A stretch of 64,000 bases of DNA from Candidatus Moraniibacteriota bacterium (GCA_942490825.1 CALNYG010000004.1:52888-116887), one strand, 5' to 3'. Shown: positions 8,746 through 64,000, numbered from the stretch's first letter. Numbers and translations are program-made. The notes: generated by a model not told the origin, from the sequence alone.

Positions 8746-8762
8746 GCCCGTGCGGCGAGCAC
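8746..8762 (+). repeat. GC-rich 17-mer (gcccgtgcggcgagcac)
   Basis: Exact 17-mer flanked by aaaa/ttttt, 47 nt before the cysS ATG. Confidence 0.9.
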
Positions 8763-10867: not shown

Positions 10868-10884
10868 GCCCGTGCGGCGAGCAC
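10868..10884 (+). repeat. GC-rich 17-mer
   Basis: Exact copy, 47 nt before the thrS ATG. Confidence 0.9.
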
Positions 10885-14463: not shown

Positions 14464-14480
14464 GTGCTCGCCGCACGGGC
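14464..14480 (-). repeat. GC-rich 17-mer (reverse orientation)
   Basis: gtgctcgccgcacgggc followed by ttttt, 34 nt after the miaA stop. Confidence 0.9.
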
Positions 14481-20575: not shown

Positions 20576-20592
20576 GTGCTCGCCGCACGGGC
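20576..20592 (-). repeat. GC-rich 17-mer
   Basis: Exact copy 31 nt upstream of the gatB start. It reads gcccgtg..gcac toward the gene. Confidence 0.9.
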
Positions 20593-26827: not shown

Positions 26828-26851
26828 AACAAGGGGCCATGACCCCTTGTT
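26828..26851. other. GC-rich hairpin downstream of rplA
   Basis: aacaagggg-ccatga-ccccttgtt. No clear U-run follows. Confidence 0.4.
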
Positions 26852-26882
26852 ATAGTGTAATAAATTTTATAAAAGTAATCTA

Positions 26883-27560
26883 TTAAGCCTCAATCTTAAC
26901 TGATGGACCCATAGTTGAACAAACTGAAACATTAGTAATCAATTTACCTTTATGAGCATCTGTTTTACATTTATTAACAGCCTCAATAAAAGCATTGTAA
27001 TTCTCTTCAAGTTTTTCTGCGTCAAAACTAGCTTTTCCAATAATTTGATGAACGTTAGCAGTATTATCATTTTTAAAGCTCTCCTTACCCTTTTTAAGCT
27101 CTCCAACTGCTTTTTCTACATCAACAGTAACTGTATCAGTCTTTGGGCTAGGCATCATCCCTCGTGGCCCTAGAACTCTAGCTGCTTGAGCTAATTTAGG
27201 CATAATATCTGGAGTAGCCACTAAAACGTCTACTTCAGGCAATTTCCCTGTTTTAATTTTATCAATCAATTCTTGTCCACCAACTAAATCTGCCCCAGCC
27301 TTTTTAGCCTCGTCTTGTTTGCTTTCTGTAATTACACCAACTTTAACTTCTTTTCCAGTTCCTTGTGGTAAAGTAACTGTCCCACGAATTTGTTGATCTC
27401 CTTTTTTTGGATCCACGTTTAATCGAATATGAACCTCAATAGATTCATCAAACTTTGCCTTTGCATTATCTCTCACTAAAACAAAAGCTTCCTTTGATGA
27501 ATAAACTTTTTCTTTGTCTACCGCTTCTGCAGCGACATCATATCTTTTTCCTTTTTTCAT
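26883..27560 (-). CDS. rplA: 50S ribosomal protein L1
   Basis: Full-length L1 signature (GTVTLPQGTGK, ATPDIMPKL, LGPRGMMP). Confidence 0.95.
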   Translation of the reverse strand: MKKGKRYDVAAEAVDKEKVYSSKEAFVLVRDNAKAKFDESIEVHIRLNVDPKKGDQQIRGTVTLPQGTGKEVKVGVITESKQDEAKKAGADLVGGQELIDKIKTGKLPEVDVLVATPDIMPKLAQAARVLGPRGMMPSPKTDTVTVDVEKAVGELKKGKESFKNDNTANVHQIIGKASFDAEKLEENYNAFIEAVNKCKTDAHKGKLITNVSVCSTMGPSVKIEA

Positions 27561-27691
27561 AATATTTTTTTACGTGGTTCAAGCGAAATAATTTCAAAAA
27601 ATTACTTTTCTCCCACATTAATTAATTATTTAAATATTGTTATTCTCACAATCAAAACTTCTTTCAAATTTATCCGTATCTCTTCAAAAAA

Positions 27692-28222
27692 TTATTTTTT
27701 CAAATTAATTAACTTAACTCTATTTAAAATAATTTCTTTTAATTTTTCAGCATTTTTTTTACTGTCATACAAACTACTAATACCTATCAAATACACTCTT
27801 CCATTTATCATAATAATTTCTAAATAATCACCAGAGCCATCAGAAATGTCAAAAATTAAACGGAATGGAAATAAAGCTATTTTAATACCCCACAATGATC
27901 TAGCGTAAAAGCGATAAATCCCATAATTTTCTTCTTTATTCAAAATCCTAACAGACTTTATAGAATCAAATTTAATATTCTTTTTTAAAATTCCACCAAA
28001 AACTATACACAAATAATTTTTATCTGTAAATATCTTCATAGTCATAAATGGAAGAAGCGATATAAACAAAAAACAAAGAAAACCCAATATGATAAAATCA
28101 TCGAAATTCCTAACCAAAAAAACAATTCCTACTAAAATAACTATCAAAATCTTAAATAAAGATTGATAGCTAAACTTAAAATAAGAAAAATTATTTTTTA
28201 AATTATCGATGTTCATAATCAT
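27692..28222 (-). CDS. two-TM membrane protein with PH-like C-terminal half, unknown function
   Basis: ORF lies 5 nt after the rplK stop, between rplK and rplA. Confidence 0.5.
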   Translation of the reverse strand: MIMNIDNLKNNFSYFKFSYQSLFKILIVILVGIVFLVRNFDDFIILGFLCFLFISLLPFMTMKIFTDKNYLCIVFGGILKKNIKFDSIKSVRILNKEENYGIYRFYARSLWGIKIALFPFRLIFDISDGSGDYLEIIMINGRVYLIGISSLYDSKKNAEKLKEIILNRVKLINLKK

Positions 28223-28227
28223 TTACC

Positions 28228-28653
28228 TTACTCAACCGTAATCCCCATTGATCTTGCAGTACCTTCAACAATCTTCTCAGCAGACTCTAAATTAGCAGCA
28301 TTCAAATCAGACATCTTAATTTCAGCAATCTCACGAATCTGATCTTTAGTAACTTTACCAATCTTATCCGCTAAAGGATTTCCAGCACCTTTTTTAACAC
28401 CAGCAGCTTTTTTCAATAATTCAGCAGCAGGAGGAGTTTTCATTATAAAACTAAAACTTCTGTCCTCATGCACTGAAATTTCTACAGGCACAACATCTCC
28501 CATTTTATCCTTTGTCTTTTCATTAAACTGAGTACAAAAATCCTGGATATTAACACCGTGTTGACCTAAAGCAGGACCAACAGGAGGAGCTGGATTAGCT
28601 TTTCCAGCTGGAATTTGTAACTTAATAATTGCACTTACTTTTTTTTCACTCAT
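28228..28653 (-). CDS. rplK: 50S ribosomal protein L11
   Basis: [26 protein letters not shown]. Confidence 0.95.
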
Positions 28654-28683
28654 ATATTTAGATTATAATTAACTTCAATAATA

Positions 28684-29229
28684 TTATATTTTCTTAATCT
28701 GAACAAAATCTAACTCAATTGGAGTTTCTCGTCCAAATACCATAACCAAAACTTTTACCTTACCACGACCTTCATCAATTTCTTGAACTTCACCATCCAT
28801 TTCTTTAAACGGACCATCGATAATTTTAACTCTCTCACCTTTTTGAACATCAATCTTATATTTTGGTTCTTCTTGACCCATCTGTTTTTTTAAAGTAAAA
28901 ATCTCATCAGGATTAACAGGAGTTGGAGTTGTTCCTAAACCAATAAATCCAGTCACATTTGGAGTATTTCGCACCACATACCAAGAAGCATCTGTTACTA
29001 TCATCTGTACTAAAATATAGCCAGGATAAATCTTTTCTTCAACCGTAACTCTTTTTCCATTCTTAATTTTAATTTTTTTCTCTGTTGGCACAATCACATC
29101 AAAAATAAATTCTTCCATATTCATAGAATCTATACGTTGACGTAAATTTCGAGCTACATTATCTTCATATCCAGAGTATGTATGTAAAACATACCAAGCT
29201 TTACCATGATGTTGAGTTTGCTTTGCCAT
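28684..29229 (-). CDS. nusG: transcription termination/antitermination factor NusG
   Basis: WYVLHTYSGYE NGN domain and a C-terminal KOW (GERVKIIDGPFKEMDGEV). Confidence 0.95.
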   Translation of the reverse strand: MAKQTQHHGKAWYVLHTYSGYEDNVARNLRQRIDSMNMEEFIFDVIVPTEKKIKIKNGKRVTVEEKIYPGYILVQMIVTDASWYVVRNTPNVTGFIGLGTTPTPVNPDEIFTLKKQMGQEEPKYKIDVQKGERVKIIDGPFKEMDGEVQEIDEGRGKVKVLVMVFGRETPIELDFVQIKKI

Positions 29230-29233
29230 ATAT

Positions 29234-29422
29234 TTACTTATTTAAAATAAAATTCTTAAGAAGACTACTAAATGTATTATCTAACAACCCTAAAACAACC
29301 GCCACAATCAAACTAATAGCAATCACTAATACTGTATAGTGCATAGCTTGTTCCTTAGTTGGCCAAGAAACCTTATTTAGCTCAGCATAGGCTTCCTTTA
29401 AAAATTGAGTAATTTTTTGCAT
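29234..29422 (-). CDS. secE: preprotein translocase subunit SecE
   Basis: Size, ELNKVSWPTKEQ and a single TM helix. It sits upstream of nusG. Confidence 0.9.
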   Translation of the reverse strand: MQKITQFLKEAYAELNKVSWPTKEQAMHYTVLVIAISLIVAVVLGLLDNTFSSLLKNFILNK

Positions 29423-29655
29423 ATTTTTTCCGATTTTAAAAAGCCCTTTATGGGCTATAATATACCTTAAGAATATATAATATTTTCAATATTGTCAAAT
29501 CAAATTTAATAATCAGTAACAATTCTAACAACCATCTCTCCAAAATTACAATTTTAATATACCCTTAACCTAGTGAAAATTAAAATAAAATCCTTAAAAT
29601 CTAATGAGATATTAAATTTTTTAGTTACTATTTACAAATTAATAGTTTTTAACCT

Positions 29656-30761
29656 CTAATCATAATCCACAATAAGCTTTCCCAAAGTCAATTCTCTTTT
29701 CACATAAATATTCATCACAATTCCCGCTACAATCAAAACACTAATCAAAGAACTCCCACCAAAACTAACAAATGGTAACGGAATTCCTGTAACTGGCATA
29801 ACGCCCATATTCATGCCAATATTTACCAAAATATGGATAAAAAACATTATCATTACACCAGAAATAACAAAGTACCCAAAAGAGTCACGTGAACACCGTG
29901 CTATGCAACGAAATCTAAAAAAAATCATTCCGAATAAACCCAAAACAAATACTGCCCCAATAAAACCTGTTGCTTCGACAATCGTAGCAAAAATAAAATC
30001 AGTATGCTTCTCTGGAAGAAAATTAAGTTGAGATTGAGAGCCATAACCAATTCCCTGACCACTTAAGCCCCCATTTCCAATAGCAACAATTGATTGCTGC
30101 ACATTATAACCACTCCCCTGTGGATCTAATTCAGAATTAAGAAAAGTTTTAATTCTATTTTGCTGAAAAGTATCTAAAAGTGGCCAAATTGAAACTGAAG
30201 CTAGAACTCCAAAAATTAAAAAAGTAATTAAATATTTTTTGCTAATTCCTGACACAAAAATCATTCCAAACCAAATTCCATAAACTACTAAGGCAGATCC
30301 AAAATCTGGTTGTTGTAAAATTAAAAAAGTAACAATACTAACAATAATAAAAGAAGCAATGATCGTAGTTAATTCTCCTAAAAAAATTCTTTTATCTTCA
30401 ATAAAATGTGCTAAAAAAATAATAACAACGATCTTTACAAATTCAACTGGCTGAATAAGTGTGAATCCTAAATTTAACCAACCAGCTGTTCCTCGAACAG
30501 TCACACCTAATGGTGTAACTAAAATTAAAACTAGAATTGCAATACTAAAAAAATAAAGTGGTGTGCTGTACGTTCTAAAAATACTATAATCAGTTACTCC
30601 TAAAATTACAAACAACCCAACACCTATTCCTGCAAAGGTAAATTGTCGCCAAAAATTACTAGAATCTGGAGATATACTATATAAAGCAATAACCCCACCG
30701 CCAAAAGTAATAATACTCCAGCAAAATAGATAAAATCAAAATTTAAAAATTTTTTTAGCAT
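29656..30761 (-). pseudogene. SEDS-family FtsW/RodA gene with an apparent frameshift near the 5' end
   Basis: ATG at 30761 opens MLKKFLNFDFIYFAGVLLLLAVGLL.., which stops at 30624. The main frame reads ..ALYSISPDSSNFWRQFTFAGIGVGLFVILG and continues to 29656. The total span is not a multiple of 3. Confidence 0.7.
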
Positions 30762-30774
30762 TATTACTAATTTA

Positions 30775-31407
30775 TCAAGAATTTAAATTATCACATTTAT
30801 TCATTCCAACTTTTTTACCTTCTTCATAACAATTATTCTTATCTTTAGAGAAAACAGGATTAATTAAACGAAAAGAATCAATGTCAACATTCTCAATGAT
30901 ATTCTCATGATAAAAAATATTATTCAAGTCTCTAGCATAACCACCTTCCATCGCCATAAAAGATTTATAATCAACATTTTTTAATTTTTCATCTAAATAA
31001 AAAATATTTTCATTATCCCTTACATATCCAGATCCCAATGTTTTAAAAGACTTTGCATCAACACCTCTCATCTTATTGTAACCATAATAAACATCTTCAG
31101 AATCCTTGATATAATTTCCTAAAACTTTATAACTACTCATCTCTAGCCCTCTCATCTTTTTATTTTTAAAATAAACATTATTTTCATCTTTACTGTAAAC
31201 AGTATTCAAAGTCTTGAAAGAATCTTTATCAATTCCCCATAATCTTTTGTAAAAAATACTATTTTTTTCATTATAATAAATCCCTCTTTCATTTTCAAAA
31301 TAGTTACTATGTATTTTAACTTTCTGACCTCCTGTAAAAATATAAATTAAAAAACCGATTACTAAAACACCGATTACAACACCAATAGTAAATTTATAAT
31401 TTTTCAT
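30775..31407 (-). CDS. DKNYY-repeat membrane-anchored protein
   Basis: N-terminal TM helix and five repeats such as SKDENNVYFKNKKM and RDNENIFYLDEKL. Confidence 0.7.
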   Translation of the reverse strand: MKNYKFTIGVVIGVLVIGFLIYIFTGGQKVKIHSNYFENERGIYYNEKNSIFYKRLWGIDKDSFKTLNTVYSKDENNVYFKNKKMRGLEMSSYKVLGNYIKDSEDVYYGYNKMRGVDAKSFKTLGSGYVRDNENIFYLDEKLKNVDYKSFMAMEGGYARDLNNIFYHENIIENVDIDSFRLINPVFSKDKNNCYEEGKKVGMNKCDNLNS

Positions 31408-31495
31408 ATTATTCCAAAATAATTTTTTATTTTAATTATTCACTAAATCGTAGAGACGTAACAATACCCCATCTCTACTATCAAAAAATAATAAA

Positions 31496-32206
31496 CTAAG
31501 CGCCTAATCTTCTTACTCTTCTACTATATTCATCAATCGATTCAGAAAATTTTTCTGCTGTAAAATCTGGAAATAATCCTTCTGAAAAATAAAGTTGAAC
31601 ATTGGCTGTATCCCACATCATAAAACCTGTGCTTAAATGTGGCTCACCACCTGTGCGAATCATGTAATCAACTGCAGGCAAATCTTTAGTCATTAAATTT
31701 TTTTTGATAACTTCTTTAGTTATGTCTTTGGCGTCTTGAAATTTTTCTACCATTTTTTGAACTGTTTGCACTATTTCATCATCACCACTATATGCAATAA
31801 AAAAAGTAAGCAAATGTTTTTTATTGTTTTTCGTTTTTTCAATTCCTTTTTTAATAACGCTTTTAATTCCTTCTGGCAATTGTTCTTCCCAACGACCAAT
31901 TACTCGCACACAGACTTCGTTTTTTTCTATTTCATCACTTTCGAAAAGTCTTTTGAAATATCTATCATAAACTGCGAGGAGTTCTTTTTTTTCTCTGAGT
32001 GGTCGTTTGGTTAAATTTTCTACTGATGATCCCCAAATTGATAGGCATTTTATTCCTAAATCTCGTGATTTTTTTACGATGTCTTCGATTCTTTCTGCTC
32101 CTTCTTCATGTCCTATCCATGGGTCTAAGTCTTTTTCTTTTGCCCAACGTCGGTTTCCGTCTGGGATGATGGCTACGTGAGTTGGGATTTGGTTTTCTTT
32201 GTTCAT
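31496..32206 (-). CDS. uppS: isoprenyl transferase (undecaprenyl diphosphate synthase)
   Basis: HVAIIPDGNRRWA and the RTGGE-like IRTGGEPHLS. Confidence 0.9.
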   Translation of the reverse strand: MNKENQIPTHVAIIPDGNRRWAKEKDLDPWIGHEEGAERIEDIVKKSRDLGIKCLSIWGSSVENLTKRPLREKKELLAVYDRYFKRLFESDEIEKNEVCVRVIGRWEEQLPEGIKSVIKKGIEKTKNNKKHLLTFFIAYSGDDEIVQTVQKMVEKFQDAKDITKEVIKKNLMTKDLPAVDYMIRTGGEPHLSTGFMMWDTANVQLYFSEGLFPDFTAEKFSESIDEYSRRVRRLGA

Positions 32207-32241
32207 AAAATATTATTATTGATTTCTCATGATTCTTAAAT

Positions 32242-32802
32242 TTAACCTAAAATTTCATCTTCATTTTCTATATAATTATATTCTTCCATATAAACAAAAT
32301 TTTTAGATTTTGGGTCATAAATAACTTTTCCACATTTATTTCCAACATTATTTAAATAATCTTCGACATTTTTTAAATTACTCATGTCTGTCTTAGGTGG
32401 AATAATAATCTCCAAACTTTGCCTATGCTTTCTTTCTATAATTAATTTTGTAGGCATTTCTTTATCAAAAAGAACACTTAATGACTTTCTGTAAAGATCT
32501 TTTCCTAATTCTCCAAAAAAGCCACTCGAAGTTGCAGTAAAAATTACAGTCATTCCTATGTAAAAAAATGATTCTAAATGCTGCATTAAATCACAAATAT
32601 CACCCCCTCCCCCTTTATCTCCTGGCGGATCGATTTCATTTATTATAGCAACATTATTATTATCTTTAAAAATGCCCTCTTCTAATTCACTAGTTTTTCC
32701 GTTAACTATTTTTATATCAAAATTTTCAAATTCAAGTTCATCTTCAAAATTGACTGGCTCAGCTTTCGTTTGATAAATATGAAAATTATAAATTTTAGCC
32801 AT
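32242..32802 (-). CDS. hypothetical protein
   Basis: ORF between uppS and the polyprenyl synthase, with no recognised motif. Confidence 0.5.
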   Translation of the reverse strand: MAKIYNFHIYQTKAEPVNFEDELEFENFDIKIVNGKTSELEEGIFKDNNNVAIINEIDPPGDKGGGGDICDLMQHLESFFYIGMTVIFTATSSGFFGELGKDLYRKSLSVLFDKEMPTKLIIERKHRQSLEIIIPPKTDMSNLKNVEDYLNNVGNKCGKVIYDPKSKNFVYMEEYNYIENEDEILG

Positions 32803-32837
32803 AATTTTATAAATTGTTTTTTAAAAAATTTTTAATC

Positions 32838-33905
32838 TTAAACCTCCCGCTTATCCAAATAATCCACCAAACCCAACAAAAAATCCCTCGGTTCATCCAA
32901 TAATTCAACTTTCTCAATCGTCATTTTTGCCTCCTGCAATAAATCAAAAGACATACTATTAGCATATTCCAATGCTCCCGTATCCACCAAAACCTTTCTA
33001 AAATCCTCCAATTCATCTTCCATCAAACCCTCCTTACCCAAAGCATTATCAAGAATTTCCCTTTGATCCTTATTAGCCTGCTTATATGCCTCTAAAGTCA
33101 AGATTGTGATCTTACCCTCACTCACATCAGAACCAACCGGTTTACCCGTTTTTTTACTATCACCAAAAACACCAATAATATCATCCTGAATCTGAAAAGC
33201 AATCCCCAATGGAATCGAAAATTCACTCAGCTGAGCACAAAAATCATCATCCGCTCCCGCCAAAATCGCCCCCAAATGCAGAGGGCCTTCAAAAGTATAC
33301 CGAGCCGTCTTATTTTCATACATCGATAAAATTTCCTCTTCGGTTGCCTTTCCTCTATATTCCATAACCACATCTTGAGTTTCCCCCACAAGAGTTCTCC
33401 CAACAACATTTTGCAATTTACTCAAAGCTTTAATCAAATTTTCTGGTTCAAAATCAGAATTAAAAAGAGCCTTCATTCCCAAAGAATAAAGTAAATCTCC
33501 CAAAACGATTCCAGTCGAAACACCAAAATGAGCATTGTCTTTAGAAATAAAATACTGCTCACTGTATTTTCGATATTTTGCATGAATCGTATCATTACCA
33601 TGACGAATGTCATCCTTATCAATAATATCATCGTGCGCCAAAAGAAAAGAATGAACTAATTCAATACTCACTGAAGTTTTAATAATTTCCTCCCGATTTT
33701 TACCTCCCGCCGCTAAATAACCATAAAACATCATTGCTGGTCGCACTCGCTTACCGCCTGCTAAAATATTTTCTTTACAATCATGTAAAACCAAAGAAGA
33801 AAATTTATCAATATTTTCAGTTTCCGCAATAACTTTATCTAAATAAATTTCTAATTCTTTGTCTACTACTTTTTTAAATTCTGATAATTTTTCTTTTACA
33901 TCCAT
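32838..33905 (-). CDS. polyprenyl diphosphate synthase (trans-IPPS)
   Basis: LAHDDIIDKDDIRHG (first Asp-rich motif, FARM) and FQIQDDIIGVFGD (second Asp-rich motif, SARM). Confidence 0.9.
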   Translation of the reverse strand: MDVKEKLSEFKKVVDKELEIYLDKVIAETENIDKFSSLVLHDCKENILAGGKRVRPAMMFYGYLAAGGKNREEIIKTSVSIELVHSFLLAHDDIIDKDDIRHGNDTIHAKYRKYSEQYFISKDNAHFGVSTGIVLGDLLYSLGMKALFNSDFEPENLIKALSKLQNVVGRTLVGETQDVVMEYRGKATEEEILSMYENKTARYTFEGPLHLGAILAGADDDFCAQLSEFSIPLGIAFQIQDDIIGVFGDSKKTGKPVGSDVSEGKITILTLEAYKQANKDQREILDNALGKEGLMEDELEDFRKVLVDTGALEYANSMSFDLLQEAKMTIEKVELLDEPRDFLLGLVDYLDKREV

Positions 33906-33982
33906 AAAATTAAAAATTTCAATTATTACTTAAATACTTAATAAATTTCAGTAAAAAACTATTTTCGTAAATCGAATATAGC

Positions 33983-34246
33983 TTATTTTTTTACTTTAAT
34001 GCCCTGAATTATATCACGAAGAGCAATAAACGACCATGTTAAATTTAAAATTAAAAAAGGAATACTGTTAATATAAAAAGCATAAAAACTCAATAATCCA
34101 GCTCCTAATAAATTACCTAGATCGTAATAAAAACTTTTTTGACTTATTTTTCCAGCATTATTTAGAAAGAAAAACACTAAAATCAACGTCATTCCCACAA
34201 TTCCAATTATTTCTACTATGTTCATAAATAATTTCAAAAAATACAA
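33983..34246 (-). CDS. small three-TM membrane protein
   Basis: ORF with hydrophobic helices. Confidence 0.45.
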   Translation of the reverse strand: MYFLKLFMNIVEIIGIVGMTLILVFFFLNNAGKISQKSFYYDLGNLLGAGLLSFYAFYINSIPFLILNLTWSFIALRDIIQGIKVKK

Positions 34247-34311: not shown

Positions 34312-34328
34312 GTGCTCGCCGCACGGGC
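34312..34328 (-). repeat. GC-rich 17-mer
   Basis: Exact copy, 65 nt upstream of the 34246 start. Confidence 0.9.
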
Positions 34329-34431: not shown

Positions 34432-34583
34432 ATCATCTCGAGCGTAGCAATAGTGAAATCAAGACCTATCCGCCGAAACACGACAGACAAAAATCTTAAA
34501 ACTTTGTAATTTTTTTAAACTTTGAGATTTATCCGTTCCGCTACGCCTGTCTGCCGACAGGTAGGCTCCAGTCGAAATGACAT
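34432..34583. repeat. family A-related element, divergent copy A4
   Basis: The left arm contains gagcgtagca. The right arm contains cgctacgc plus the hairpin cctgtctgccgacagg, and ends ctccagtcgaaatgacat. Confidence 0.6.
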
Positions 34584-34630: not shown

Positions 34631-35131
34631 ATGAATTCTGAACAAAAACTTTATGATATTTTAAAAGAATTAAAAATAGAATTTGAAAAAATTGAGCATC
34701 CTGCTTTTGATACTTGCGAAAAGTCTGGCGATTTTTATCAAGAAAATAATCTAGGCGTGAATTGTAAAAATATTTTTCTCCAAAACAGACGAGGCAAAAA
34801 ACATTATTTAGTTACTATATTAGCTGAAAATCAATTGGATATTCCGAAATTAGCGGAATTTTTAGACGAGCATCGGAAAATGGGATTCGCTTCTGCTGAA
34901 AGACTAGATAAATATTTAGGTTTACAGCCTGGATCGGTTACACCTTTTTCTATCGTTAATGAAAGTGCTAAAGATATTCCTGTGATTGTTGATAAAGAGA
35001 TTTTTAAAAGTGAGTTTGTTCATTTTCATCCCTTGCGGAATACGGCAACTTTGAAAATTTCCACAAAAGATTTTTGTAAATTTTTAGATAATTTTTCTGA
35101 TTCGAATGAGTTTTTGGAGTTTGAGTTTTAA
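34631..35131 (+). CDS. YbaK/ProX-type aminoacyl-tRNA editing domain protein
   Basis: Size, KNIFLQNRRGK, PGSVTPF and HFHPLRNTATL. Confidence 0.75.
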   Translation: MNSEQKLYDILKELKIEFEKIEHPAFDTCEKSGDFYQENNLGVNCKNIFLQNRRGKKHYLVTILAENQLDIPKLAEFLDEHRKMGFASAERLDKYLGLQPGSVTPFSIVNESAKDIPVIVDKEIFKSEFVHFHPLRNTATLKISTKDFCKFLDNFSDSNEFLEFEF

Positions 35132-35141
35132 AAAGAAAAAA

Positions 35142-35158
35142 GTGCTCGCCGCACGGGC
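35142..35158 (-). repeat. GC-rich 17-mer
   Basis: Exact copy, 10 nt after the stop of 34631..35131. Confidence 0.9.
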
Positions 35159-35223: not shown

Positions 35224-35376
35224 CATGTCATTCCGGAAAATAATTTTGTAACGTAGTGGAGAAATTATTTTCCGGAATCTAGGAAATTTTAAGATAAATA
35301 ATAAGCTTTGAATTTTCAACTTTCTTTTATTTTCCTAGATTCTCTTCTTCTCCGCCACGCTCCAGCCGGGAATGAC
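35224..35376. repeat. family A nested-hairpin element, copy A5 (long-arm form)
   Basis: catgtcat-[tccggaaaataatttt..aaattattttccgga]-atctaggaaa ... tttcctagat-[tctc..ccacgctccagccggga]-atgac. Confidence 0.8.
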
Positions 35377-35444
35377 AAAGTAAAATAATTGTAATTTTGT
35401 AATCTAATTAATTTTCGATGATGAGTTTTTGGGTTGTAATTATT

Positions 35445-44313: not shown

Positions 44314-44350
44314 GTGCCTGTCTGCCGATAGGCAGGCTCGGCGCACGGGC
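44314..44350 (-). repeat. GC-rich 17-mer variant split by a 19-20 nt hairpin insert
   Basis: gtgc-[ctgtctgccgataggcagg]-ctcggcgcacgggc, 53 nt downstream of the Y1 transposase stop. Confidence 0.7.
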
Positions 44351-44402: not shown

Positions 44403-45110
44403 CTATTCCAAAATAAATTTCTCCAATTCTTTCTTCTCCTTCAAATACAAGGCATTTTTTTCAATAAAATCTTTATAATCCTTTAGATCATAATCAAACT
44501 GCTCTAAAATAACATCTTTATCACATAACATTCCATTTCTTTTTCCAAGATAATCTAAAAGACTAGAATATTTCCAATCTTCATTTTTATTTCCATGAAT
44601 GAAATGATTTTGATTTACATAAGCAGATAGATACAAAAGATATTCATTTGAATCAATGTGAATTGACTTGAATTTTCCTTGAAAAAGTGAGCCTGAACGT
44701 TTGTGTTTTTTGTTAAAATACATCGTGTAAGAAGTTCCTAATTTCTGCATAAATCTTTCTACACCCTTATCTGCGTTTTGTTTCAAAATAAAATGATAAT
44801 GATTTGGATTTAAACAATATGCAACAAATTCAACAAGTTTATTCCTATTCTTAAGTTGTTCTTTGAAATTATTTTCAAACACTCCAAGGTTCGACCTTCG
44901 GGGATCCGAAGGTCGAACCTTTTCACGTTGATAATCTCTATAAAGTTGCATCAATCCATTGCTTTCATCATTCAACAAATTCATATTCAAGATAAATCTC
45001 TTATAATCATCCTCATCCATAAAAACGTTCTTTTTATCAACGCCTCGATTATAAATATGATAAAATTCATAGTTTGCGAATTGCGTTTTTCTCATAAAAA
45101 AATTAAACAA
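44403..45110 (-). CDS. Y1 HUH transposase (IS200-like / REP-associated RAYT-like)
   Basis: YHIYNRGVDKKNVF, the HUH motif NPNHYHFIL and the C-terminal Tyr region LSAYVNQNHF. Confidence 0.75.
   Translation of the reverse strand: MFNFFMRKTQFANYEFYHIYNRGVDKKNVFMDEDDYKRFILNMNLLNDESNGLMQLYRDYQREKVRPSDPRRSNLGVFENNFKEQLKNRNKLVEFVAYCLNPNHYHFILKQNADKGVERFMQKLGTSYTMYFNKKHKRSGSLFQGKFKSIHIDSNEYLLYLSAYVNQNHFIHGNKNEDWKYSSLLDYLGKRNGMLCDKDVILEQFDYDLKDYKDFIEKNALYLKEKKELEKFILE
44886..44921. repeat. family C 36-nt perfect palindrome inside the Y1 transposase gene
   Basis: aaggttcgaccttcgg-ggat-ccgaaggtcgaacctt, translated as KVRPSDPRRSNL. Confidence 0.9.
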
Positions 45111-48149: not shown

Positions 48150-48166
48150 GTGCTCGCCGCACGGGC
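48150..48166 (-). repeat. GC-rich 17-mer
   Basis: Exact copy, 52 nt upstream of the helicase start. Confidence 0.9.
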
Positions 48167-48175: not shown

Positions 48176-48204
48176 TTGACATAGTTTTGTTTATGGTGTA
48201 TACT
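48176..48204 (+). promoter_or_regulatory. near-consensus sigma70-type promoter
   Basis: TTGACA, a 17-nt spacer, then TATACT. About 120 nt of leader precede the GTG at 48327. Confidence 0.6.
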
Positions 48205-48515
48205 TATGAATCAGTCGTTGAGAAGTTAGTTTAATTCTTGCGATTGCATTGTGAAAGTTTGTTGTTCTTGTTGTTCTTTGGGTAAAACATTTCCCGTAAA
48301 TCAATTTTATCAAAAAAGGAGAAAAAGTGTCTGTAAAAAATAAAACCATTATTTTTACCACTCTTCTAGTTATCTTCATCAAACCTGCACTGAGACCCTT
48401 CACAAAATTGTGTCTGATAGTAAAATTAAATTAATAAATTTAATAATAAAATCATGTCAGACAAGAAAAATAGAACCGAAGAATTATTAGAAAAAAACAT
48501 AAAAAACTGGTATTG

Positions 48516-48959
48516 CTACTCAAATATAGAAATAGCAATTTCTCTGTGCATGAATAGCAAGATTGTATATTCAACCATTTCAATACTTTTAGAATAACAA
48601 TGAGTTTTCCTATGAAATCTTGCTATATAATGTCTTAATTGATTATTCATTTCTTCAACTGTAAAAGTCTCTGCTTTTGTTTGAATGTGCTTATCTTTTG
48701 GTAAAAATTTTTTATAAACATCCCAATGATCTGAACAGTATTTATCGCAATCAATTTTTTGATTTTGTCCCATAATTTTCTTCCAGTTTTTTCACCTCTT
48801 GTCCCTATCACGAAATCAATTATTATTTTACTAGATCTATCAACTGCAAGCCAAATCCAGTGCTTTTTTCTTTTTTAACACAAAAATGCCACATTTCATC
48901 TAATTCCATTTTTTCTATTTTCCAATATTTTACTTCTTTTTTACTTTTTAAAATATTCC
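48516..48959 (-). pseudogene. insB: IS1 InsB-like DDE region with extra frameshifts (copy A)
   Basis: DEMWHF, ..WIWLAVD.. and ..CDKYCSDHWDVYKKF..RKTHCYSKS lie in three different frames. Confidence 0.7.
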
Positions 48960-49214
48960 TTAATTTTTTAGTTGCTTTTTTACCCATCTTAATATACTAA
49001 CGTTACTAACTTTCAGTATTCTTCCTATTGATCTAAATCCTAGTCCCTCTAAATACATTTCAATTGCTTTTTTCTTAATTTCTTTAGGTTTTCCTCTTTT
49101 TGTAAATCTAGAAAAGTTATAGCTACATTCTTTACATAGATATCTTTGTTTTTTATTTACTTTACCATTTTTAACATAATTCTTATTATTGCAATGAGGG
49201 CATTTAATTTTCAT
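48960..49214 (-). CDS. insA: IS1 InsA-like Zn-finger/HTH protein
   Basis: CPHCNNKNYVKNGKVNKKQRYLCKEC plus the helix-turn-helix GFRSIGRILKVSNVSILRW. It ends just after an A AAA AAG heptamer. Confidence 0.75.
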   Translation of the reverse strand: MKIKCPHCNNKNYVKNGKVNKKQRYLCKECSYNFSRFTKRGKPKEIKKKAIEMYLEGLGFRSIGRILKVSNVSILRWVKKQLKN

Positions 49215-50710
49215 TTTTTTGTTTTTAGGTATTTAATTACCTATTCATTTTACATTATCTATAGTTTGGTAGCAATACCAAAAAACTTAAGAGAAAATCT
49301 AGATGATTTATCCATGGATAAATTCATAGGAAAAACAATAGAAACCTTAATGCTAATAGAAAGAGATGAGTATTTAGAAGATATTAATAAAACTAAAAAA
49401 GATAAAGGAAATGGATCATACGGAAGAGCTATGAATTCATTATCAAAAAACTCATTACTTGTTCATATTCCAAGAACTAGAACAGGATTATTCTCTCCAG
49501 CAACACTAGAACTTTTAAAAATTAACAGAGAAAAAGTAGATGAAATAGCTTTATCTTTATATAAAAAAGGAATGACTTCCAATGACATTAATGAATTTTT
49601 AAATGAAATTTTTGAAGAAAACATGTCTCCTGCTAAGATATCTAATTTAGCAAAAGTATTTAATAAATTTAGAATAGCTTGGCAAAATTCCAAATTAGAA
49701 AAACATTACAAAGTTGTTTATGGAGATGTAATTTTCATTACTGTGCGAAGAGGTGATGAATACGCTAAGGAAGGTGTATTTATTGCTTTTGGAGTAAGAG
49801 AAGATAATAGACGAGAATTGCTTTGTTTAAGTCAAAATCCAACCGAATCAGCAGAATTTTGGAAAGAATTATTGCAAGATTTAAGAGAAGAAAGAGGTGT
49901 TCAACAAATAGATTTATTTGTAGCTGATGGATTAAAAAATTTAGAAAATGTATTTTTAGAAATATATCCCCAAGGAGAATTTCAAAAGTGCGTAGTTCAT
50001 AAACAAAGAAATATTTTAAACAAAACAAGACCGAAAGATAAAAAAGAAATAGGAGAAGATTTAAAAGAAATATTTAATAATTTTGAAGAAAATGATACAA
50101 TTGAAAAAGCCTTGAAAAAAGTAAATAATTTTTTAGAAAAATGGAAAACAAAATATCCAAATTTTAAAAATCATTTTACAGAAATTGAATATTATTTTAC
50201 ATATATTAAATTCAATCCTCGAGTAAGAAGAATGATTTATACAACTAATTCAATTGAAAATTTGAATAGGCAAATTAGAAAAACTACAAAGAATAAATTA
50301 TCATTTGAATCTCCCGAAAGATTATTGGACTATGTATTTATGGTTATTAAGGAGTTTGAAGAAAAAAATTATATGAAATATCCTGTTTCTAATTTTAAAT
50401 ATTTTAATAAAATTAAGAAAGGTTAAATGGGCGATGGACACACTTTGTTGAAGGGTCCCCCTGCACTCGCAGATGAAAGGATCGAGGTGCCCAATGAAGA
50501 TCTTGCATCTACTATCAGCGATGTCTTAAATACTGCGCAGGGTAATACTGGAGTGGTTACAGTCAATTATGCGTATGGAGATGGAGAATCTGAAACTTCT
50601 GTCATACGGATAAAACCAACCATCAGGGGAACGGCTGTGAGTGTCACACCAAGTAGTTCCACACTAACTCCTAGCCTAGATGATTGATTAACAACTCGTC
50701 ACATTGTGGC

Positions 50711-51272: not shown

Positions 51273-51461
51273 ATGTCATTCCGGAAGACATAATTTGTTC
51301 AAGAGCGTAGCGATTGAATACAAATTAGTCTATCCGGAATCTGCACCTTAAGATTGAAGAAAACTCAGAGTACAAGATTCCAGATAAATTATTTTCTAGT
51401 TTTGAAACGCGATAAATCGACGTTTCTACAAAGGAAAATATATTTTCCGGAATGACACATG
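51273..51461. repeat. family A nested-hairpin element, copy A7 (long form)
   Basis: atgtcat-[tccggaagacataatttgt..agcgtagcg..acaaattagtctatccgga]-atc ... [ggaaaatatattttccgga]-atgacacatg. Confidence 0.75.
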
Positions 51462-51509
51462 TCTGGGGATTTTTTATTTTGCGAGAATTGAAGTTCTATA
51501 GTCTTGAAA

Positions 51510-51526
51510 GCCCGTGCGGCGAGCAC
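51510..51526 (+). repeat. GC-rich 17-mer
   Basis: Exact copy, 43 nt before the priA ATG. Confidence 0.9.
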
Positions 51527-51569
51527 AAAAAATATATCAATAAATAAATAAATCTGCTACAATAAATCC

Positions 51570-53587: not shown

Positions 53588-53604
53588 GTGCTCGCCGCAC
53601 GGGC
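53588..53604 (-). repeat. GC-rich 17-mer
   Basis: Exact copy, 35 nt after the priA stop. Confidence 0.9.
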
Positions 53605-53673: not shown

Positions 53674-53705
53674 AAAAAAAGACTTTCTTTAGAAAGTCTT
53701 TTTTA
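53674..53705. terminator. bidirectional intrinsic terminator
   Basis: aaaaagactttc-ttta-gaaagtcttttt. Confidence 0.7.
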
Positions 53706-61487: not shown

Positions 61488-63221
61488 TTAATTATCCAAC
61501 TGAACCCAAGAAGTTCCGTTATATCCGTAAAAATGGTTATCGGTTGAATTGTAATAAATACCGCCTTCGATTCCAGTTGGAGCGGAAGAAGAAGTTCCTT
61601 GGACAACAACTCCTTTTAGGTGTGTTTCTGTTATTGAGTTATTTCCTAAAGTAGCTGTATTATCACCATTACCTTCAGCATCATACCCAATAACAATTTC
61701 ATTTGTTACAATTGAAGATTCACCAGTTGTATATGCACCTAAATATAAAGAGTCAGAAGTATTACTTAAAGATCCGCCTGCATTAGTATTTCTCCCAGCA
61801 ATTGTGCCCAAAAAAGTAGAATTTGCAGCATCTGAATATCTTCCAGCACTATAACCAATAGCTGTTACATCTGCAGCACTGGCATTTTGAGCTGCCTGAG
61901 CACCAATAATAGTTGCATGAGGGTTAGAACCTATATATCTACCAGCACCTAATCCACCAATTATCACACCTCCGTAACCAGTTGAGCCTATTGCACTAGA
62001 ATCTCCGATAAGGATAGTGGCTGATGACGGGCGTCCAATGTAGGTATTATCAATATAAATATGATTTAATGCTGTTAAACTTTCTGTATCAATTTGAGAA
62101 GCACCATTAACGCTAATCCAACCGTCATTTCGAATACTAAATAAATTACTATCAGAGCTATTATCAACTTTTAAAGCATAAGCTGTGTCATCAGAAGTAG
62201 AGCCTTTAACATGAATTCGAGCATTTGGAGTTGATTGCCCTATTCCCAACCTATTTTCACCATCATCCCAAAACAAATTACCATTATCCTCAGTAACCCC
62301 TGAACTTGAAGTAAACAAAAGTGAACCTTCTGTATATGAATTAATCGTATCTGTTAAATTTAGAAAATTAGTTGAATGAGGATTAGCTGTATCTGAAGTA
62401 TGTGTGCTTATTGTAGTTGAATCATCTAAATCATCTAAATTTATAGTGTTTCCATCTGAAATTGAAAGTTCATTATTAATTAAATTGTAAGATAGCTCTT
62501 GTTTTAAATCATCTAAATCTACAGTATTTCCATTCGAAATTGAAAGTTCGCCATTACTTTCATTAAAATCTAAATCTTGTTTTAAATCTGATAAGTCTAC
62601 ATCATTACCATTCGAAATAGATAATGTATCATTATTAAAACTTAAAGTTTGTTCATCATCATCAATATCTTCTTCACAAATAAATTCATTACCATTCCAG
62701 ATTAATTTTTCTATTGAACTGCAAGTTGGTGATTCTATTGAAAGTTTGTCATTACTATCTATTTCTAATCCATTTTCTGTTGTTATGCTCTTCCCCGCAT
62801 CTCCACAAGCCCATTGATCATCATCCCAAATTAGAGTTTTGTTATCTTCTTTACATTCCAAACTTCCCGAACTATTTACTTTTACGTTGTTTTTATCTAG
62901 TTCTCCAAAAACTGCACTTGTTGGCTTTTTACATTCCCACATTTTTAATCCTCCATGCCATTGTAAAATTCTATCATCTTCAATACATTCTATTTTTCCG
63001 TCTTGTTGTTTAATTGTGTTGGTATCAAAATTTAAAGATATATTACTAGCTGTTCCCACGCCTGTGCTGGCGAAAGTTTTATAAAGCAAAATTAAAACTA
63101 CAATAACTGCAATAGTTAATGTTATTTTGAAAAATTTGGATTTTTTGGGTTCCGGAGTTTTTTGAGAGAAAAGTTTTTGAGCATTTCTGCTTGATTGGCT
63201 TTGTGAAGATGCCTGATTCAT
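61488..63221 (-). CDS. secreted repeat-containing adhesin/tail-fiber-like protein
   Basis: N-terminal TM helix; three C..L.W.g..W.C modules; three LSISNGN(D/T)VDL(S/D)DLKQ(D/E)L repeats; Gly/Ala-rich AIGYSAGR-type repeats; C-terminal FYGYNGTSWVQL. Confidence 0.6.
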   Translation of the reverse strand: MNQASSQSQSSRNAQKLFSQKTPEPKKSKFFKITLTIAVIVVLILLYKTFASTGVGTASNISLNFDTNTIKQQDGKIECIEDDRILQWHGGLKMWECKKPTSAVFGELDKNNVKVNSSGSLECKEDNKTLIWDDDQWACGDAGKSITTENGLEIDSNDKLSIESPTCSSIEKLIWNGNEFICEEDIDDDEQTLSFNNDTLSISNGNDVDLSDLKQDLDFNESNGELSISNGNTVDLDDLKQELSYNLINNELSISDGNTINLDDLDDSTTISTHTSDTANPHSTNFLNLTDTINSYTEGSLLFTSSSGVTEDNGNLFWDDGENRLGIGQSTPNARIHVKGSTSDDTAYALKVDNSSDSNLFSIRNDGWISVNGASQIDTESLTALNHIYIDNTYIGRPSSATILIGDSSAIGSTGYGGVIIGGLGAGRYIGSNPHATIIGAQAAQNASAADVTAIGYSAGRYSDAANSTFLGTIAGRNTNAGGSLSNTSDSLYLGAYTTGESSIVTNEIVIGYDAEGNGDNTATLGNNSITETHLKGVVVQGTSSSAPTGIEGGIYYNSTDNHFYGYNGTSWVQLDN

Positions 63222-63264
63222 AGCATTTTTATTTTAAAATAAGAACTGATTTTTATATTTTTTT

Positions 63265-64000
63265 GGTATTGCTACTCAAATATAGAAATAGCAATTTCTC
63301 TGTGCATGAATAGCAAGATTGTATATTCAACCATTTCAATACTTTTAGAATAACAATGAGTTTTCCTATGAAATCTTGCTATATAATGTCTTAATTGATT
63401 ATTCATTCCTTCAACTGTAAAAGTCTCTGCTTTTGTTTGAATGTGCTTATCTTTTGGTAAAAATTTTTTATAAACATCCCAATGATCTGAACAGTATTTA
63501 TCGCAATCAATTTTTTTGATTTTGTCCCATAATTTTCTTCCAGTTTTTTCACCTCTTGTCCCTATCACGAAATCAATTATTATTTTACTAGATCTATCAA
63601 CTGCAAGCCAAATCCAGGCTTTTTTCTTTTTTTTAACACAAAATGCCACATTTCATCTAATTCCATTTTTTCTATTTTCCAATATTTTACTTCTTTTTTA
63701 CTTTTTAAAATATTCCTTAATTTTTTAGTTGCTTTTTTTACCCATCTTAATATACTAACGTTACTAACTTTCAGTATTCTTCCTATTGATCTAAATCCTA
63801 GTCCCTCTAAATACATTTCAATTGCTTTTTTTTCTTAATTTCTTTAGGTTTTCCTCTTTTTGTAAATCTAGAAAAGTTATAGCTACATTCTTTACATAGA
63901 TATCTTTGTTTTTTATTTACTTTACCATTTTTAACATAATTCTTATTATTGCAATGAGGGCATTTAATTTTCATTTTTTTGTTTTTAGGTATTTAATTAC
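63265..64000 (-). mobile_element. IS1-family insertion sequence, copy B (runs off the window)
   Basis: Same end ggtattgctactc as copy A, and colinear with it to the window edge. It begins 43 nt upstream of the adhesin start. Confidence 0.85.
63272..63974 (-). pseudogene. IS1 InsA/InsB reading frames of copy B, with frame changes at homopolymer runs
   Basis: ATG at 63974. A T8 run (versus T6 in copy A) breaks InsA. An A AAA AAG heptamer lies in frame before AWIWLAVDRSS. Confidence 0.7.

What the first reader, a model, noticed from the sequence alone, without database searches (positions are those of the whole stretch)
48150..48166. A GC-rich 17-mer (GTGCTCGCCGCACGGGC) is strictly conserved at ten intergenic sites
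There are nine exact copies: 8746, 10868, 14464, 20576, 34312, 35142, 48150, 51510 and 53588. One split variant lies at 44314. All are flanked by A and T runs.

In six cases the motif reads gcccgtgcggcgagcac toward a start codon 31-65 nt away (cysS, thrS, gatB, the 34246 gene, the helicase and priA). In three cases it lies 10-35 nt after a stop codon in a convergent gap (miaA, ybaK-like and priA).

The only obvious fold is a 4-bp GUGC/GCAC stem with a 5-nt loop, which is weak for a terminator. Ordinary terminators in this window (for example 5886, 26187, 53674 and 56573) are each unique in sequence. Exact conservation of both loop and flanks points to a mobile REP-like unit or a protein or RNA recognition site.
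Basis: seen in the sequence. Interest (0 to 1): 0.65.

Follow-up and report, generated by a model that had tools for sequence, protein, structure and literature searches.

The report
Lineage-specific short intergenic repeat family
The GC-rich 17-mer is real and far beyond chance, but it is best read as the invariant core of a young REP-like intergenic repeat family confined to a few related Moranbacteria (candidate phyla radiation), not as a conserved regulatory site.

Summary
There are nine exact copies plus one split copy, all intergenic, against 0.01 expected by chance.

The same 17-mer plus TTT occurs at least 67 times exactly in a related MAG (Candidatus Moraniibacteriota JAGLWU01). Elsewhere it appears only as chance hits in GC-rich DNA.

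Orthologous comparisons show turnover. Only two of the five window sites comparable with JAGLWU are occupied there, and old shared copies have decayed in relatives. At thrS and cysS the copy lies in the 5' leader, after a T-box-like riboswitch.

The conserved unit is about 21 nt: the 17-mer plus T3-4. It is usually the outermost module of mosaic blocks built from other short palindromic repeats.

Its polarity follows transcription: 45 to 6 in tandem gene pairs. The GTGC end lies 20-150 nt before a start codon or 4-35 nt after a stop codon.

Its hairpins are weak (about -6 kcal/mol, no better than shuffles) and much shorter than this genome's real terminators.

A link to the neighbouring Y1 (RAYT-like) gene is not supported. 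Best reading: a REP/BIME-like selfish repeat that carries a weak polar terminator-like hairpin. Its copying mechanism is unknown.

The parts
8746..8762 (-). Exact copy. On the + (sense) strand it reads AAAAGCCCGTGCGGCGAGCACTTTTT, 47 nt before the cysS ATG (8810). It is the last module of a mosaic block (about 8566-8762) inserted between the T-box-like leader and the start codon.
10868..10884 (-). Exact copy 47 nt before the thrS ATG (10932). The block 10708-10847 is 99% identical to 8586-8725. The orthologous site is empty in JAGLWU, carries a 1-mismatch copy in L090 and carries a decayed 18-mer in L088.
14464..14480 (+). Exact copy 34 nt after the miaA stop, in a convergent gap. The local flank CCT extends the stem to 7 pairs. 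No match within 4 mismatches was found anywhere in the syntenic loci of JAGLWU, L088 or L090.
20576..20592 (+). Exact copy 31 nt upstream of the gatB ATG (20544, - strand). It is absent upstream of gatB in JAGLWU, L088, L089 and L090.
34312..34328 (+). Exact copy 65 nt upstream of the 33983-34246 ORF. A TGCTATAAT promoter-like element lies between the copy and that ORF.
35142..35158 (+). Exact copy 10 nt after the stop of the YbaK-like editing-domain gene (34631-35131), in a convergent gap.
44314..44350 (+). Split copy. The 17-mer (one substitution, C8 to G) carries a nested 20-nt hairpin, CTGTCTGCCGATAGGCAGGC, inserted at GC^TC. It is followed by TATGATACATAA instead of a T-run and lies 52 nt beyond the stop of the Y1 gene.
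48150..48166 (+). Exact copy 52 nt upstream of the ATG of the UvrD/PD-(D/E)XK helicase-nuclease gene (48097, - strand). Its T-run is followed by a strong promoter-like site (48176-48204).
51510..51526 (-). Exact copy 43 nt upstream of the priA ATG, just upstream of a conserved TGCTACAAT promoter-like element. JAGLWU has an exact copy at the orthologous place. The site is empty in L083, L084 and L085.
53588..53604 (+). Exact copy 35 nt after the priA stop. A 13-bp bidirectional terminator follows at 53675-53704. L083 and L084 have only a unique long-stem terminator in this convergent gap and no copy.
44403..45110 (-). It is listed as a candidate only; no link was shown.

Best explanation
The 17-mer plus its 3' T-tract (about 21 nt) is the invariant core of a lineage-restricted family of short interspersed extragenic repeats in a small clade of Candidatus Moranbacteria. 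In kind it resembles REP/BIME elements.

Shown here:
- Copies are gained, lost and decay on the time scale that separates close relatives.
- Within a genome the copies are nearly all identical.
- A copy is usually the outermost module of mosaic blocks built from other short palindromic repeats.
- Copies sit only between genes, with a polarity that follows transcription. The GTGC end faces a nearby gene boundary. The GGGC-TTTT end faces the 3' end of the upstream gene.

Inferred: within-genome identity reflects recent spread or homogenisation, not selection on each copy. The unit's GCUCG/CGGGC hairpin plus U-tract acts at most as a weak terminator in the GTGC-to-T-run direction. That would explain why copies survive in the opposite orientation upstream of genes and inside the cysS and thrS leaders, and in the co-oriented sense only right after stop codons.

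Not shown: how copies are made. Candidates are a trans-acting single-strand HUH enzyme, or gene conversion or templated insertion at short homologies. The one cleanly alignable empty site, AAAGCC|ATATCA, became AAAGCC-CGTGCGGCGAGCACAAAAAAT-ATATCA.
For: Copy number and distribution:
- 10 copies against 0.01 expected.
- viral and metagenome hits are only single hits in GC-rich DNA.
- no copy in the more distant Moranbacteria loci L061, L062, L083, L084 and L085; no match within 4 mismatches in L088 or L089, which are as close to the window as JAGLWU by GatB; L088 does carry a decayed indel copy.

Turnover at orthologous sites:
- gatB-upstream, miaA-downstream and priA-downstream copies are in the window only.
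- The corA-upstream copy is in JAGLWU only.
- The thrS site is empty in JAGLWU.
- The shared cysS copy has 2 mismatches in JAGLWU. The thrS copy has 1 mismatch in L090, and a substitution plus an indel in L088.

Context:
- the cysS and thrS copies lie between a T-box-like leader and the ATG, so they are insertions into a 5' UTR.
- recurrent fixed junctions to other modules. All 12 copies of module C, 18 hairpin-A hits and 10 of 23 hairpin-B hits adjoin a copy.
- polarity is 45 to 6 in tandem pairs (p = 2e-8). In most convergent gaps (about 9 of 11) the copy lies 4-35 nt after one stop codon.
- unbiased non-seed copies still have TTTT in 16 of 21 cases.
- the window contains no intermediate decayed copies.
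Against: - No terminal inverted repeats, target duplications or excision products were seen.
- A mobile unit of about 21-30 nt has no demonstrated mechanism.
- No cognate enzyme was identified.
- Two genomes whose proteins differ by 10-23% keep the identical consensus, and the shared priA-upstream copy is 17/17 identical while the alignable flank is 31/36. That could indicate sequence-level constraint.
- Most upstream-type copies lie before the downstream gene's promoter. There a sense terminator would be harmless, so the 45:6 polarity is not fully explained by avoidance of polar effects.
- ORF calls in the relatives were crude (longest ORFs of 90 aa or more).
Confidence: 0.55

Rival explanations
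1. The copies are a family of functional intrinsic terminators or insulators at transcription-unit borders. GCUCG-CCGCA-CGGGC plus U4 stops RNA polymerase moving in the GTGC-to-T direction. This ends convergent genes and blocks upstream-directed (divergent or antisense) transcription from the next gene's promoter into the 3' end of the previous gene.
For: - The simple scan calls the unit terminator-like in that direction at eight of the nine exact window copies (51510, followed by TTTC, is not called). The flanking A-tract and U-tract can extend the helix.
- Seventeen copies lie after a stop codon in the co-oriented sense, most of them within 35 nt.
- In 56 of 72 classified copies the T-run end faces a gene's 3' end.
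- The copy at 14464 has a 7-pair stem.
- Copies bracket the large gene cluster 20851-34246, with none inside it.
Against: - The hairpin is only about -6 kcal/mol, no better than shuffled sequence (z about -0.3). The long-stem terminator-like hairpins flagged in this genome have 9-20 pairs.
- At the priA end a long-stem bidirectional terminator sits 70 nt further on, and relatives have only a long-stem terminator in that gap, so the copy is redundant.
- The corA unit already ends at a terminator at 8059-8087.
- Copies come and go between close relatives.
- Function does not explain an invariant loop.
Confidence: 0.2
2. The copies are strict REP elements mobilised by the Y1 (RAYT) transposase encoded at 44403-45110.
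For: - The gene has an HUH/Y1 domain (PF01797, 35 bits; HYH and a Y motif in the sequence).
- It weakly resembles the RAYT model, and some JGI entries name homologues RayT.
- A copy variant lies 52 nt after its stop.
- The unit has the form tetranucleotide (GCCC) plus short hairpin.
- REPs are about 20 nt, extragenic and often flanked by A and T runs (PMC3337134).
Against: - The RAYT model score of 29.6 is far below the cut-off of 80.
- The gene is not flanked on both sides, because its 5' end abuts the helicase gene.
- The adjacent copy is an atypical one with a nested insertion.
- All copies are singlets; the closest spacing is 260 nt and otherwise 830 nt or more. No inverted doublets were seen.
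- The Y1 family is widespread in CPR (4723 hits), yet in the two other Moranbacteria examined the 16.5-20.7 kb around the Y1 gene contains no copy.
- No Y1 homologue was found in the 389 kb of JAGLWU loci, and no hit above 68% identity apart from the window's own gene was returned.
- The repeats clustered in and around Y1 genes are a different palindrome family. GTAG...CTAC hairpins also exist in JAGLWU.
Confidence: 0.1
3. The 17-mer is a sequence-specific protein recognition site on duplex DNA. Possibilities are a global regulator, a polar roadblock terminator or a DNA uptake signal.
For: - All 17 positions are invariant, including loop and unpaired bases, in two genomes.
- Structure alone does not explain the conservation.
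- The distribution is lineage-specific, like dialects of uptake sequences.
Against: - No occurrences within credible coding sequence. The three 'inside ORF' cases come from crude ORF calling and were not checked.
- Strong transcription-linked polarity.
- Variable distance to promoters.
- Presence or absence differs at orthologous genes, including essential ones.
- Physical fusion to other mobile-looking modules.
- Absent from the loci fetched from L089 (7.2 kb) and present only as a decayed indel copy in L088 (15.1 kb), which by GatB identity are as close to the window as JAGLWU.
Confidence: 0.08
4. The 17-mer is a promoter element (UP-like, -35-like or an activator site) for the downstream gene.
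For: Fifty-five of 72 copies lie mostly 20-150 nt upstream of a start codon in one orientation. TGnTATAAT-type elements often follow.
Against: - Spacing to the -10-like elements varies from about 20 to more than 100 nt.
- Seventeen copies lie after stop codons.
- The cysS and thrS promoters lie upstream of the T-box-like leader, far from the copy.
- Orthologous promoters work without the copy in relatives.
Confidence: 0.03

Closest known systems
REP sequences and BIME mosaics of Enterobacteria, and REP/REPIN families of Pseudomonas
   Same: - Short (about 16-20 nt) invariant core with a small GC-rich palindrome.
- Tens to hundreds of copies, strictly extragenic and species- or lineage-specific.
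- Often flanked by A and T runs.
- Combined with other short motifs in recurrent mosaic orders.
- Located between transcription units or in UTRs.
   Different: - Copies are singlets, not inverted doublets.
- The palindrome is only 4-5 bp and there is no GTAG head.
- The singlets are the best-conserved form.
- There is a strong polarity relative to transcription.
- No flanked RAYT gene was found.
Modular intergenic repeats such as BOX (Streptococcus pneumoniae) and Correia/dRS3 elements (Neisseria)
   Same: - Intergenic blocks assembled from a few short modules in fixed relative order.
- Variable module content between sites and strains.
- Potential to add hairpins, terminators or promoters next to genes.
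   Different: - There is no sequence relation.
- The unit here is much shorter.
- No terminal inverted repeats or target duplications were seen.
DNA uptake sequences (Neisseria DUS, Pasteurellaceae USS)
   Same: An exact short motif, highly over-represented, lineage-specific, and often found at terminators.
   Different: According to general knowledge, DUS and USS also occur inside genes and lack polarity relative to transcription. Here no copy is in credible coding sequence and polarity is 45:6.
IS200/IS605-derived non-autonomous elements (PATEs) moved by Y1 HUH transposases
   Same: - Hairpin-bearing ends.
- No target duplication.
- In the one clean empty site, the insertion appears next to a fixed short sequence (AAAGCC).
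   Different: - No second end was defined.
- Orientation follows local transcription, not a single replication direction.
- No cognate TnpA was shown.

Membership tests
REP / REPIN-RAYT system | Short (about 20 nt) repeated sequence, many copies, predominantly extragenic (PMC3337134) | tested here: met
   10 of 10 window copies lie outside ORFs. There are at least 88 copies in the JAGLWU/JAGLUC loci; 3 of the 87 exact or 1-mismatch copies classified (window included) fell inside crude ORF calls and were not checked.
REP / REPIN-RAYT system | Imperfect palindromic core able to form a hairpin | tested here: inconclusive
   Only 4-bp (GUGC/GCAC) or 5-bp (GCUCG/CGGGC) stems, at -5.7 and -6.2 kcal/mol, with z about -0.2 to -0.3 against shuffles.
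REP / REPIN-RAYT system | Copies organised as inverted doublets (REPINs), with doublets better conserved than singlets | tested here: not met
   The closest two copies are 260 nt apart, and otherwise 830 nt or more. All copies are singlets, yet 67 of 88 are exact in JAGLWU and 9 of 10 in the window.
REP / REPIN-RAYT system | A single-copy RAYT gene flanked by its cognate REPs | tested here: not met
   One atypical split copy lies 52 nt after the stop of the Y1 gene. None lies upstream, because the gene abuts the helicase gene. The NCBIfam REP_Tyr_transpos score is 29.6 against a cut-off of 80. No second Y1 copy is in the window.
REP / REPIN-RAYT system | RAYT binds and cleaves the REP single strand | not testable with these tools
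   This needs purified protein and oligonucleotides.
Intrinsic (factor-independent) terminator | GC-rich hairpin immediately followed by a U-tract | tested here: met
   The 5-pair stem GCUCG/CGGGC is followed by T3-5 in 9 of 9 exact window copies, and by TTTT in 16 of 21 unbiased variant copies. This only just reaches the scan's minimum criteria.
Intrinsic (factor-independent) terminator | Lies downstream of, and co-oriented with, the gene it ends | tested here: not met
   This holds for 17 of 72 classified copies. In 45 of 51 tandem pairs the hairpin and U-tract point against the flanking genes.
Intrinsic (factor-independent) terminator | Stability in the range of the genome's other terminators | tested here: not met
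   The long-stem terminator-like hairpins flagged in the window (about 5880, 8059, 12763, 16500, 50815, 53675, 56573) have 9-20 pairs. The unit has 5.
Intrinsic (factor-independent) terminator | Transcript 3' ends map in the U-tract | not testable with these tools
   No transcript data are available.
DNA uptake sequence | An over-represented exact motif distributed through the genome without transcription polarity, including in genes | tested here: not met
   The motif is over-represented, but no copy lies in credible coding sequence and polarity is 45:6.
MITE | Terminal inverted repeats and target-site duplication | tested here: not met
   Flanks outside about 21-30 nt are unrelated between copies. 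No inverted partner lies nearby. No consistent duplication was seen at the one alignable filled or empty site.
BIME-like mosaic element | The repeat occurs joined to a limited set of other conserved motifs at fixed junctions | tested here: met
   The T-run is followed by hairpin A, hairpin B, module C, hairpin D or TATGATACATAA in most JAGLWU copies. Module C adjoins a copy in 12 of 12 cases.

The most novel reading that the evidence does not exclude
The exact 17-bp sequence might be read by a dedicated sequence-specific factor in this Moranbacteria lineage. One possibility is a polar roadblock or termination protein that insulates transcription units in a very AT-rich genome with weak hairpins, analogous to mitochondrial mTERF. 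Another is the receptor of a DNA-uptake system. In either case copies would be kept identical by function rather than by recent copying.
Probability: 0.07. Interest if true: 0.75.

Novelty: new member of a known kind. Interest (0 to 1): 0.35.

Why it matters
Repeat families of the REP/BIME type have been studied mainly in Proteobacteria. Two literature searches here found no description of them in candidate-phyla-radiation genomes.

This family shows that tiny, streamlined CPR genomes can carry dense, fast-turning-over mosaics of short repeats. These sit at gene borders and even inside riboswitch-controlled leaders of essential aminoacyl-tRNA synthetase genes.

The strict polarity and the invariant singlet core are unusual for REPs. 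They make the family a usable marker for strain-level evolution and a test case for how very short sequences multiply.

In practice, such repeats can break MAG assemblies and seed mis-binning.

Tried and rejected
- **Rfam.** At gathering threshold on the whole window there were no hits. At E up to 1 on 8350-8830 there were only weak, sub-threshold hits to FtrB and WsnRNA46, caused by a neighbouring GTCAT...GGGGATC module.
- **tRNA/tmRNA scan.** Nothing found.
- **Structure as the explanation.** Both strands fold no better than shuffles.
- **Viral and metagenome scans.** Only chance hits in GC-rich DNA.
- **Y1 protein.** No sequence match in the PDB. There was no close homologue in the JAGLWU loci. 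One context look-up (P0001) was not on record.
- **Fixed promoter spacing.** Rejected, because distances to -10-like elements vary widely.
- **Orientation set by replication.** Rejected. GC skew keeps one sign across the window, while copy orientation flips with local gene strand.
- **Split copy as an ancestral long hairpin.** Rejected. The same 20-nt insert interrupts an unrelated module at 34547-34566.
- **Base-level insertion boundaries.** This failed at the corA, gatB and thrS sites because the flanks are too diverged.
- **Literature.** Searches found no description of such repeats, or of T-box leaders, in CPR.

Full report
**1. The observation**

The exact 17-mer GTGCTCGCCGCACGGGC occurs nine times, at 8746-, 10868-, 14464+, 20576+, 34312+, 35142+, 48150+, 51510- and 53588+. 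A tenth hit with three mismatches lies at 44334+. Shuffles give 0.01 expected. The window is 30% G+C.

The distribution of mismatches is bimodal: nine copies at 0, none at 1-2, one at 3, and from 5 upward only chance-level hits.

The tenth copy is a true split copy. Positions 44314-44350 read GTGC[CTGTCTGCCGATAGGCAGGC]TCGGCGCACGGGC.

All ten lie between ORFs. Pfam confirms the neighbours as CorA, CysS, ThrS, MiaA, GatB, a YbaK-type editing domain, a UvrD/PD-(D/E)XK helicase-nuclease, PriA and a Y1_Tnp protein.

Every exact copy is followed by TTT and usually preceded by an A-rich stretch.

**2. Where else it occurs**

Of these, 53 come from one MAG, Candidatus Moraniibacteriota RS_12_31 (JAGLWU01). 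Two come from a 30%-GC contig binned as Methylococcales in the same study. Five are single hits in unrelated GC-rich genomes.

In about 389 kb of those AT-rich loci there are 67 exact copies and 21 with 1-3 mismatches.

The window is not that MAG. Only one stretch exceeds 90% DNA identity. It is a relative, however. L034 is syntenic with window 7133-14429 at 80-89% protein identity. PriA is 77% identical and GatB 90%.

Proteins 100% identical to the window's PriA and GatB sit on a 182,390-nt NCBI contig, which I take to be the source.

Viral and metagenome scans gave only hits inside GC-rich sequence.

Loci from other Moranbacteria carry no match within 4 mismatches: L061, L062, L083, L084, L085, L088 and L089, about 93 kb of distinct sequence. 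L088 nevertheless holds a decayed copy with an indel. L090 has one copy with one mismatch.

**3. Anatomy of the unit**

Across 82 copies only the 17-mer and the following TTT(T) are informative. The 5' side is A-rich (positions -12 to -3) but not fixed. Because the scan pattern required TTT, the unbiased evidence comes from elsewhere: 9 of 9 exact window copies, and TTTT after 16 of 21 variant copies.

Two folds are possible. One is GUGC/GCAC (4 bp). The other is GCUCG/CGGGC (5 bp, one G-U pair), which abuts the T-run. Their energies are -5.7 and -6.2 kcal/mol with flanks, no better than shuffled sequence, with z about -0.3.

The simple scan calls the second register terminator-like, but at its minimum criteria. 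The long-stem terminator-like hairpins flagged in this window have 9-20 pairs.

**4. Context and polarity**

I classified 87 exact or 1-mismatch copies against crude ORF calls:
- In tandem gene pairs, 45 have the GTGC end toward the downstream start and 6 have the reverse (p = 2e-8).
- Eleven are in convergent gaps, most with the GTGC end 4-35 nt after one stop codon.
- Ten are in apparently divergent gaps.
- Three fell inside crude ORF calls and were not checked.
- Twelve are at locus edges.

So there are two geometries. In the first, a stop codon is followed within 4-35 nt by GTGC...GGGC-TTTT. In the second, AAAA-GCCCG...CAC is followed within 20-150 nt by an ATG.

In the window the orientation flips with the local gene strand, while GC skew keeps one sign. 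The polarity therefore follows transcription, not replication.

Downstream of upstream-type copies, TGnTATAAT-like promoters appear at variable distances. The copy is therefore not a fixed promoter element.

**5. The copies are insertions that turn over**

Upstream of both cysS and thrS, in both genomes, lies a conserved promoter (TTGACA-16/17-TAAAAT) and a leader of about 160 nt. The leader has a stem whose terminal loop holds UGC-A (cysS) or ACU-A (thrS). It also has a hairpin with a 7-nt UGGAACC bulge, as in T-box antiterminators, and a long helix followed by a U-run. Rfam does not detect it.

In the window, a mosaic of roughly 200-250 nt ending in the 17-mer separates this leader from the ATG of both genes. 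In JAGLWU the thrS leader runs straight into the ATG.

At thrS, L090 has the same mosaic, with a copy carrying one mismatch. L088 has GCCCGTGTGGGCGAGCAC, which carries a substitution and an indel.

At cysS, JAGLWU has a copy with two mismatches, joined to different modules.

At priA-upstream, the window and JAGLWU both have exact copies and L083, L084 and L085 have none. There the flanks align: AAAGCC|ATATCA in L083 against AAAGCC-CGTGCGGCGAGCACAAAAAAT-ATATCA in the window.

At priA-downstream only the window has a copy. A 13-bp terminator follows it at 53675-53704. L083 and L084 have only a unique long-stem terminator in that gap.

The gatB-upstream and miaA-downstream copies are window-only. 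The corA-upstream copy is JAGLWU-only.

So only 2 of the 5 window sites comparable with JAGLWU are shared, and old shared copies drift.

Within-genome identity is therefore best explained by recent copying or homogenisation. The 99% identical blocks at cysS and thrS show that homogenisation does occur.

**6. Mosaic partners**

In JAGLWU the T-run is joined at fixed junctions to a small set of modules:
- AACAAGGGGTCATGACCCCTTGTT
- GGGTTTGCCAGTGGCAAACCC-CTACAA, which carries a GTAG head when it stands alone
- CACCATTCAACATTTTTCGAAATTCTAAAA, which adjoins a copy in 12 of 12 cases
- GGGTTTAAAATTTTAAACCC
- TATGATACATAA

These modules vary by about 6-10% from their consensus while the 17-mer does not. 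However, the loci were chosen on exact copies, so I do not use this as evidence of selection.

**7. The Y1 gene**

The ORF at 44403-45110 has an HUH/Y1 domain and the motifs HYH and Y. It scores only 29.6 bits, against a cut-off of 80, on the RAYT model. It has no sequence match in the PDB.

It belongs to a very large CPR family of 4723 hits, typically 222 aa and about 60% identical.

Only the split copy lies beside it, on one side. The copies are never in inverted doublets.

The 20-nt insert in the split copy is an independent mini-hairpin. It also interrupts another module, at 34547-34566, at the same GC^TC context.

The repeats actually clustered in and around Y1 genes are other palindromes. 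GGTTCGACCTTCGG...CCGAAGGTCGAACC lies inside this gene and inside miaA. AAGGCTCAACCTT hairpins occur five times around and inside the Y1 gene of L062.

By the defining features of REP/REPIN-RAYT systems (PMC3337134), membership is not met for the doublet criterion or the flanked-RAYT criterion.

**8. Interpretation**

Shown:
- This is a lineage-restricted, extragenic, high-copy repeat of about 21 nt.
- It turns over between relatives, has a mosaic context and has a transcription-linked polarity.

Inferred:
- It is a REP/BIME-like selfish repeat.
- Its hairpin and U-tract are at most a weak polar terminator. This would account for survival in the reverse sense inside the cysS and thrS leaders and before genes, and in the forward sense only right after stops.

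Unresolved:
- The copying mechanism is unknown.
- It is unclear why two diverged genomes keep the same consensus.
- It is unclear why polarity is so strong for copies that lie upstream of promoters.

These open points leave room for a functional insulator or terminator role (about 0.2) or a factor-recognition site (about 0.08).

**9. Verdict**

This is a new member of a known kind, of moderate to low interest.

Noticed in passing
window 8403-8565 (cysS) and 10526-10688 (thrS); promoter-like sites at 8362-8390 and 10487-10514: T-box-like leaders are conserved in two genomes. The terminal loop of the first stem carries UGC-A before cysS and ACU-A before thrS. A hairpin has a 7-nt UGGAACC bulge within AAGUGGAACCGCC. 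A long outer helix is followed by a U-run. Rfam does not detect them even at E up to 1. A literature search for T-box riboswitches in the candidate phyla radiation found nothing.
   Followed up: partly
window 13618-13655 (inside miaA) and 44885-44922 (inside the Y1 gene); L062 9949-13561: A 38-nt near-perfect palindrome (GGTTCGACCTTCGG..CCGAAGGTCGAACC) sits in-frame inside two protein-coding genes. In another Moranbacteria locus, five AAGGCTCAACCTT hairpins cluster around the Y1 gene and two lie inside it. This recalls Rickettsia palindromic elements and suggests these palindromes, not the 17-mer, may be tied to the Y1 protein.
   Followed up: partly
window 44318-44337 and 34547-34566: The same 20-nt mini-hairpin, CTGTCTGCCGAYAGGYAGGC, is inserted at a GC^TC junction inside two unrelated repeats: the 17-mer and a GTCAT...GAATC-type module. 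JAGLWU has 39-40-nt versions inside two 17-mer copies (L014, L024).
   Followed up: partly
window 8586-8726, 10708-10848, 16318-16458, 35325-35378 and about 51437-51470: There is a family of modules of the form GTCATYCC...GGRATC(C), for example GTCATCCCCGCGAAGGCGGGGATCC. It gives weak sub-threshold Rfam hits to Francisella FtrB and Wolbachia WsnRNA46. Related modules occur in most Moranbacteria loci fetched.
   Followed up: no
window 48508-49240 and 63264-64000; 49146-50426: Two near-identical copies (88-100%) of an IS1-like element carry fragmented InsA/InsB ORFs. In the first copy an IS256-type (Transposase_mut) gene overlaps its end.
   Followed up: no
window 48176-48204 (+) and 13364-13392 (-): Two related strong promoter-like sites (GGGGTTGACATAGTTTTG...; TTGACA-17-TATACT or TATATT) share 60 nt at 75%. 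The first starts right after the T-run of the 48150 copy and has no obvious gene downstream.
   Followed up: no
window 51540-51569 and orthologues in L082-L085: A conserved TGCTA(C/A)AAT element ends 6-8 nt before the priA ATG in five genomes. Similar spacing is seen before gatB, cysS and thrS, with no Shine-Dalgarno sequence. This suggests leaderless or near-leaderless mRNAs.
   Followed up: no
window 62427-62660: Three tandem 78-nt repeats (62-100% identical) lie inside the ORF 61488-63221.
   Followed up: no
L037 and L058 (JAGLUC010000165.1): A contig binned as Methylococcales has 26-30% G+C and carries the 17-mer with typical Moranbacteria modules. It is probably mis-binned.
   Followed up: no
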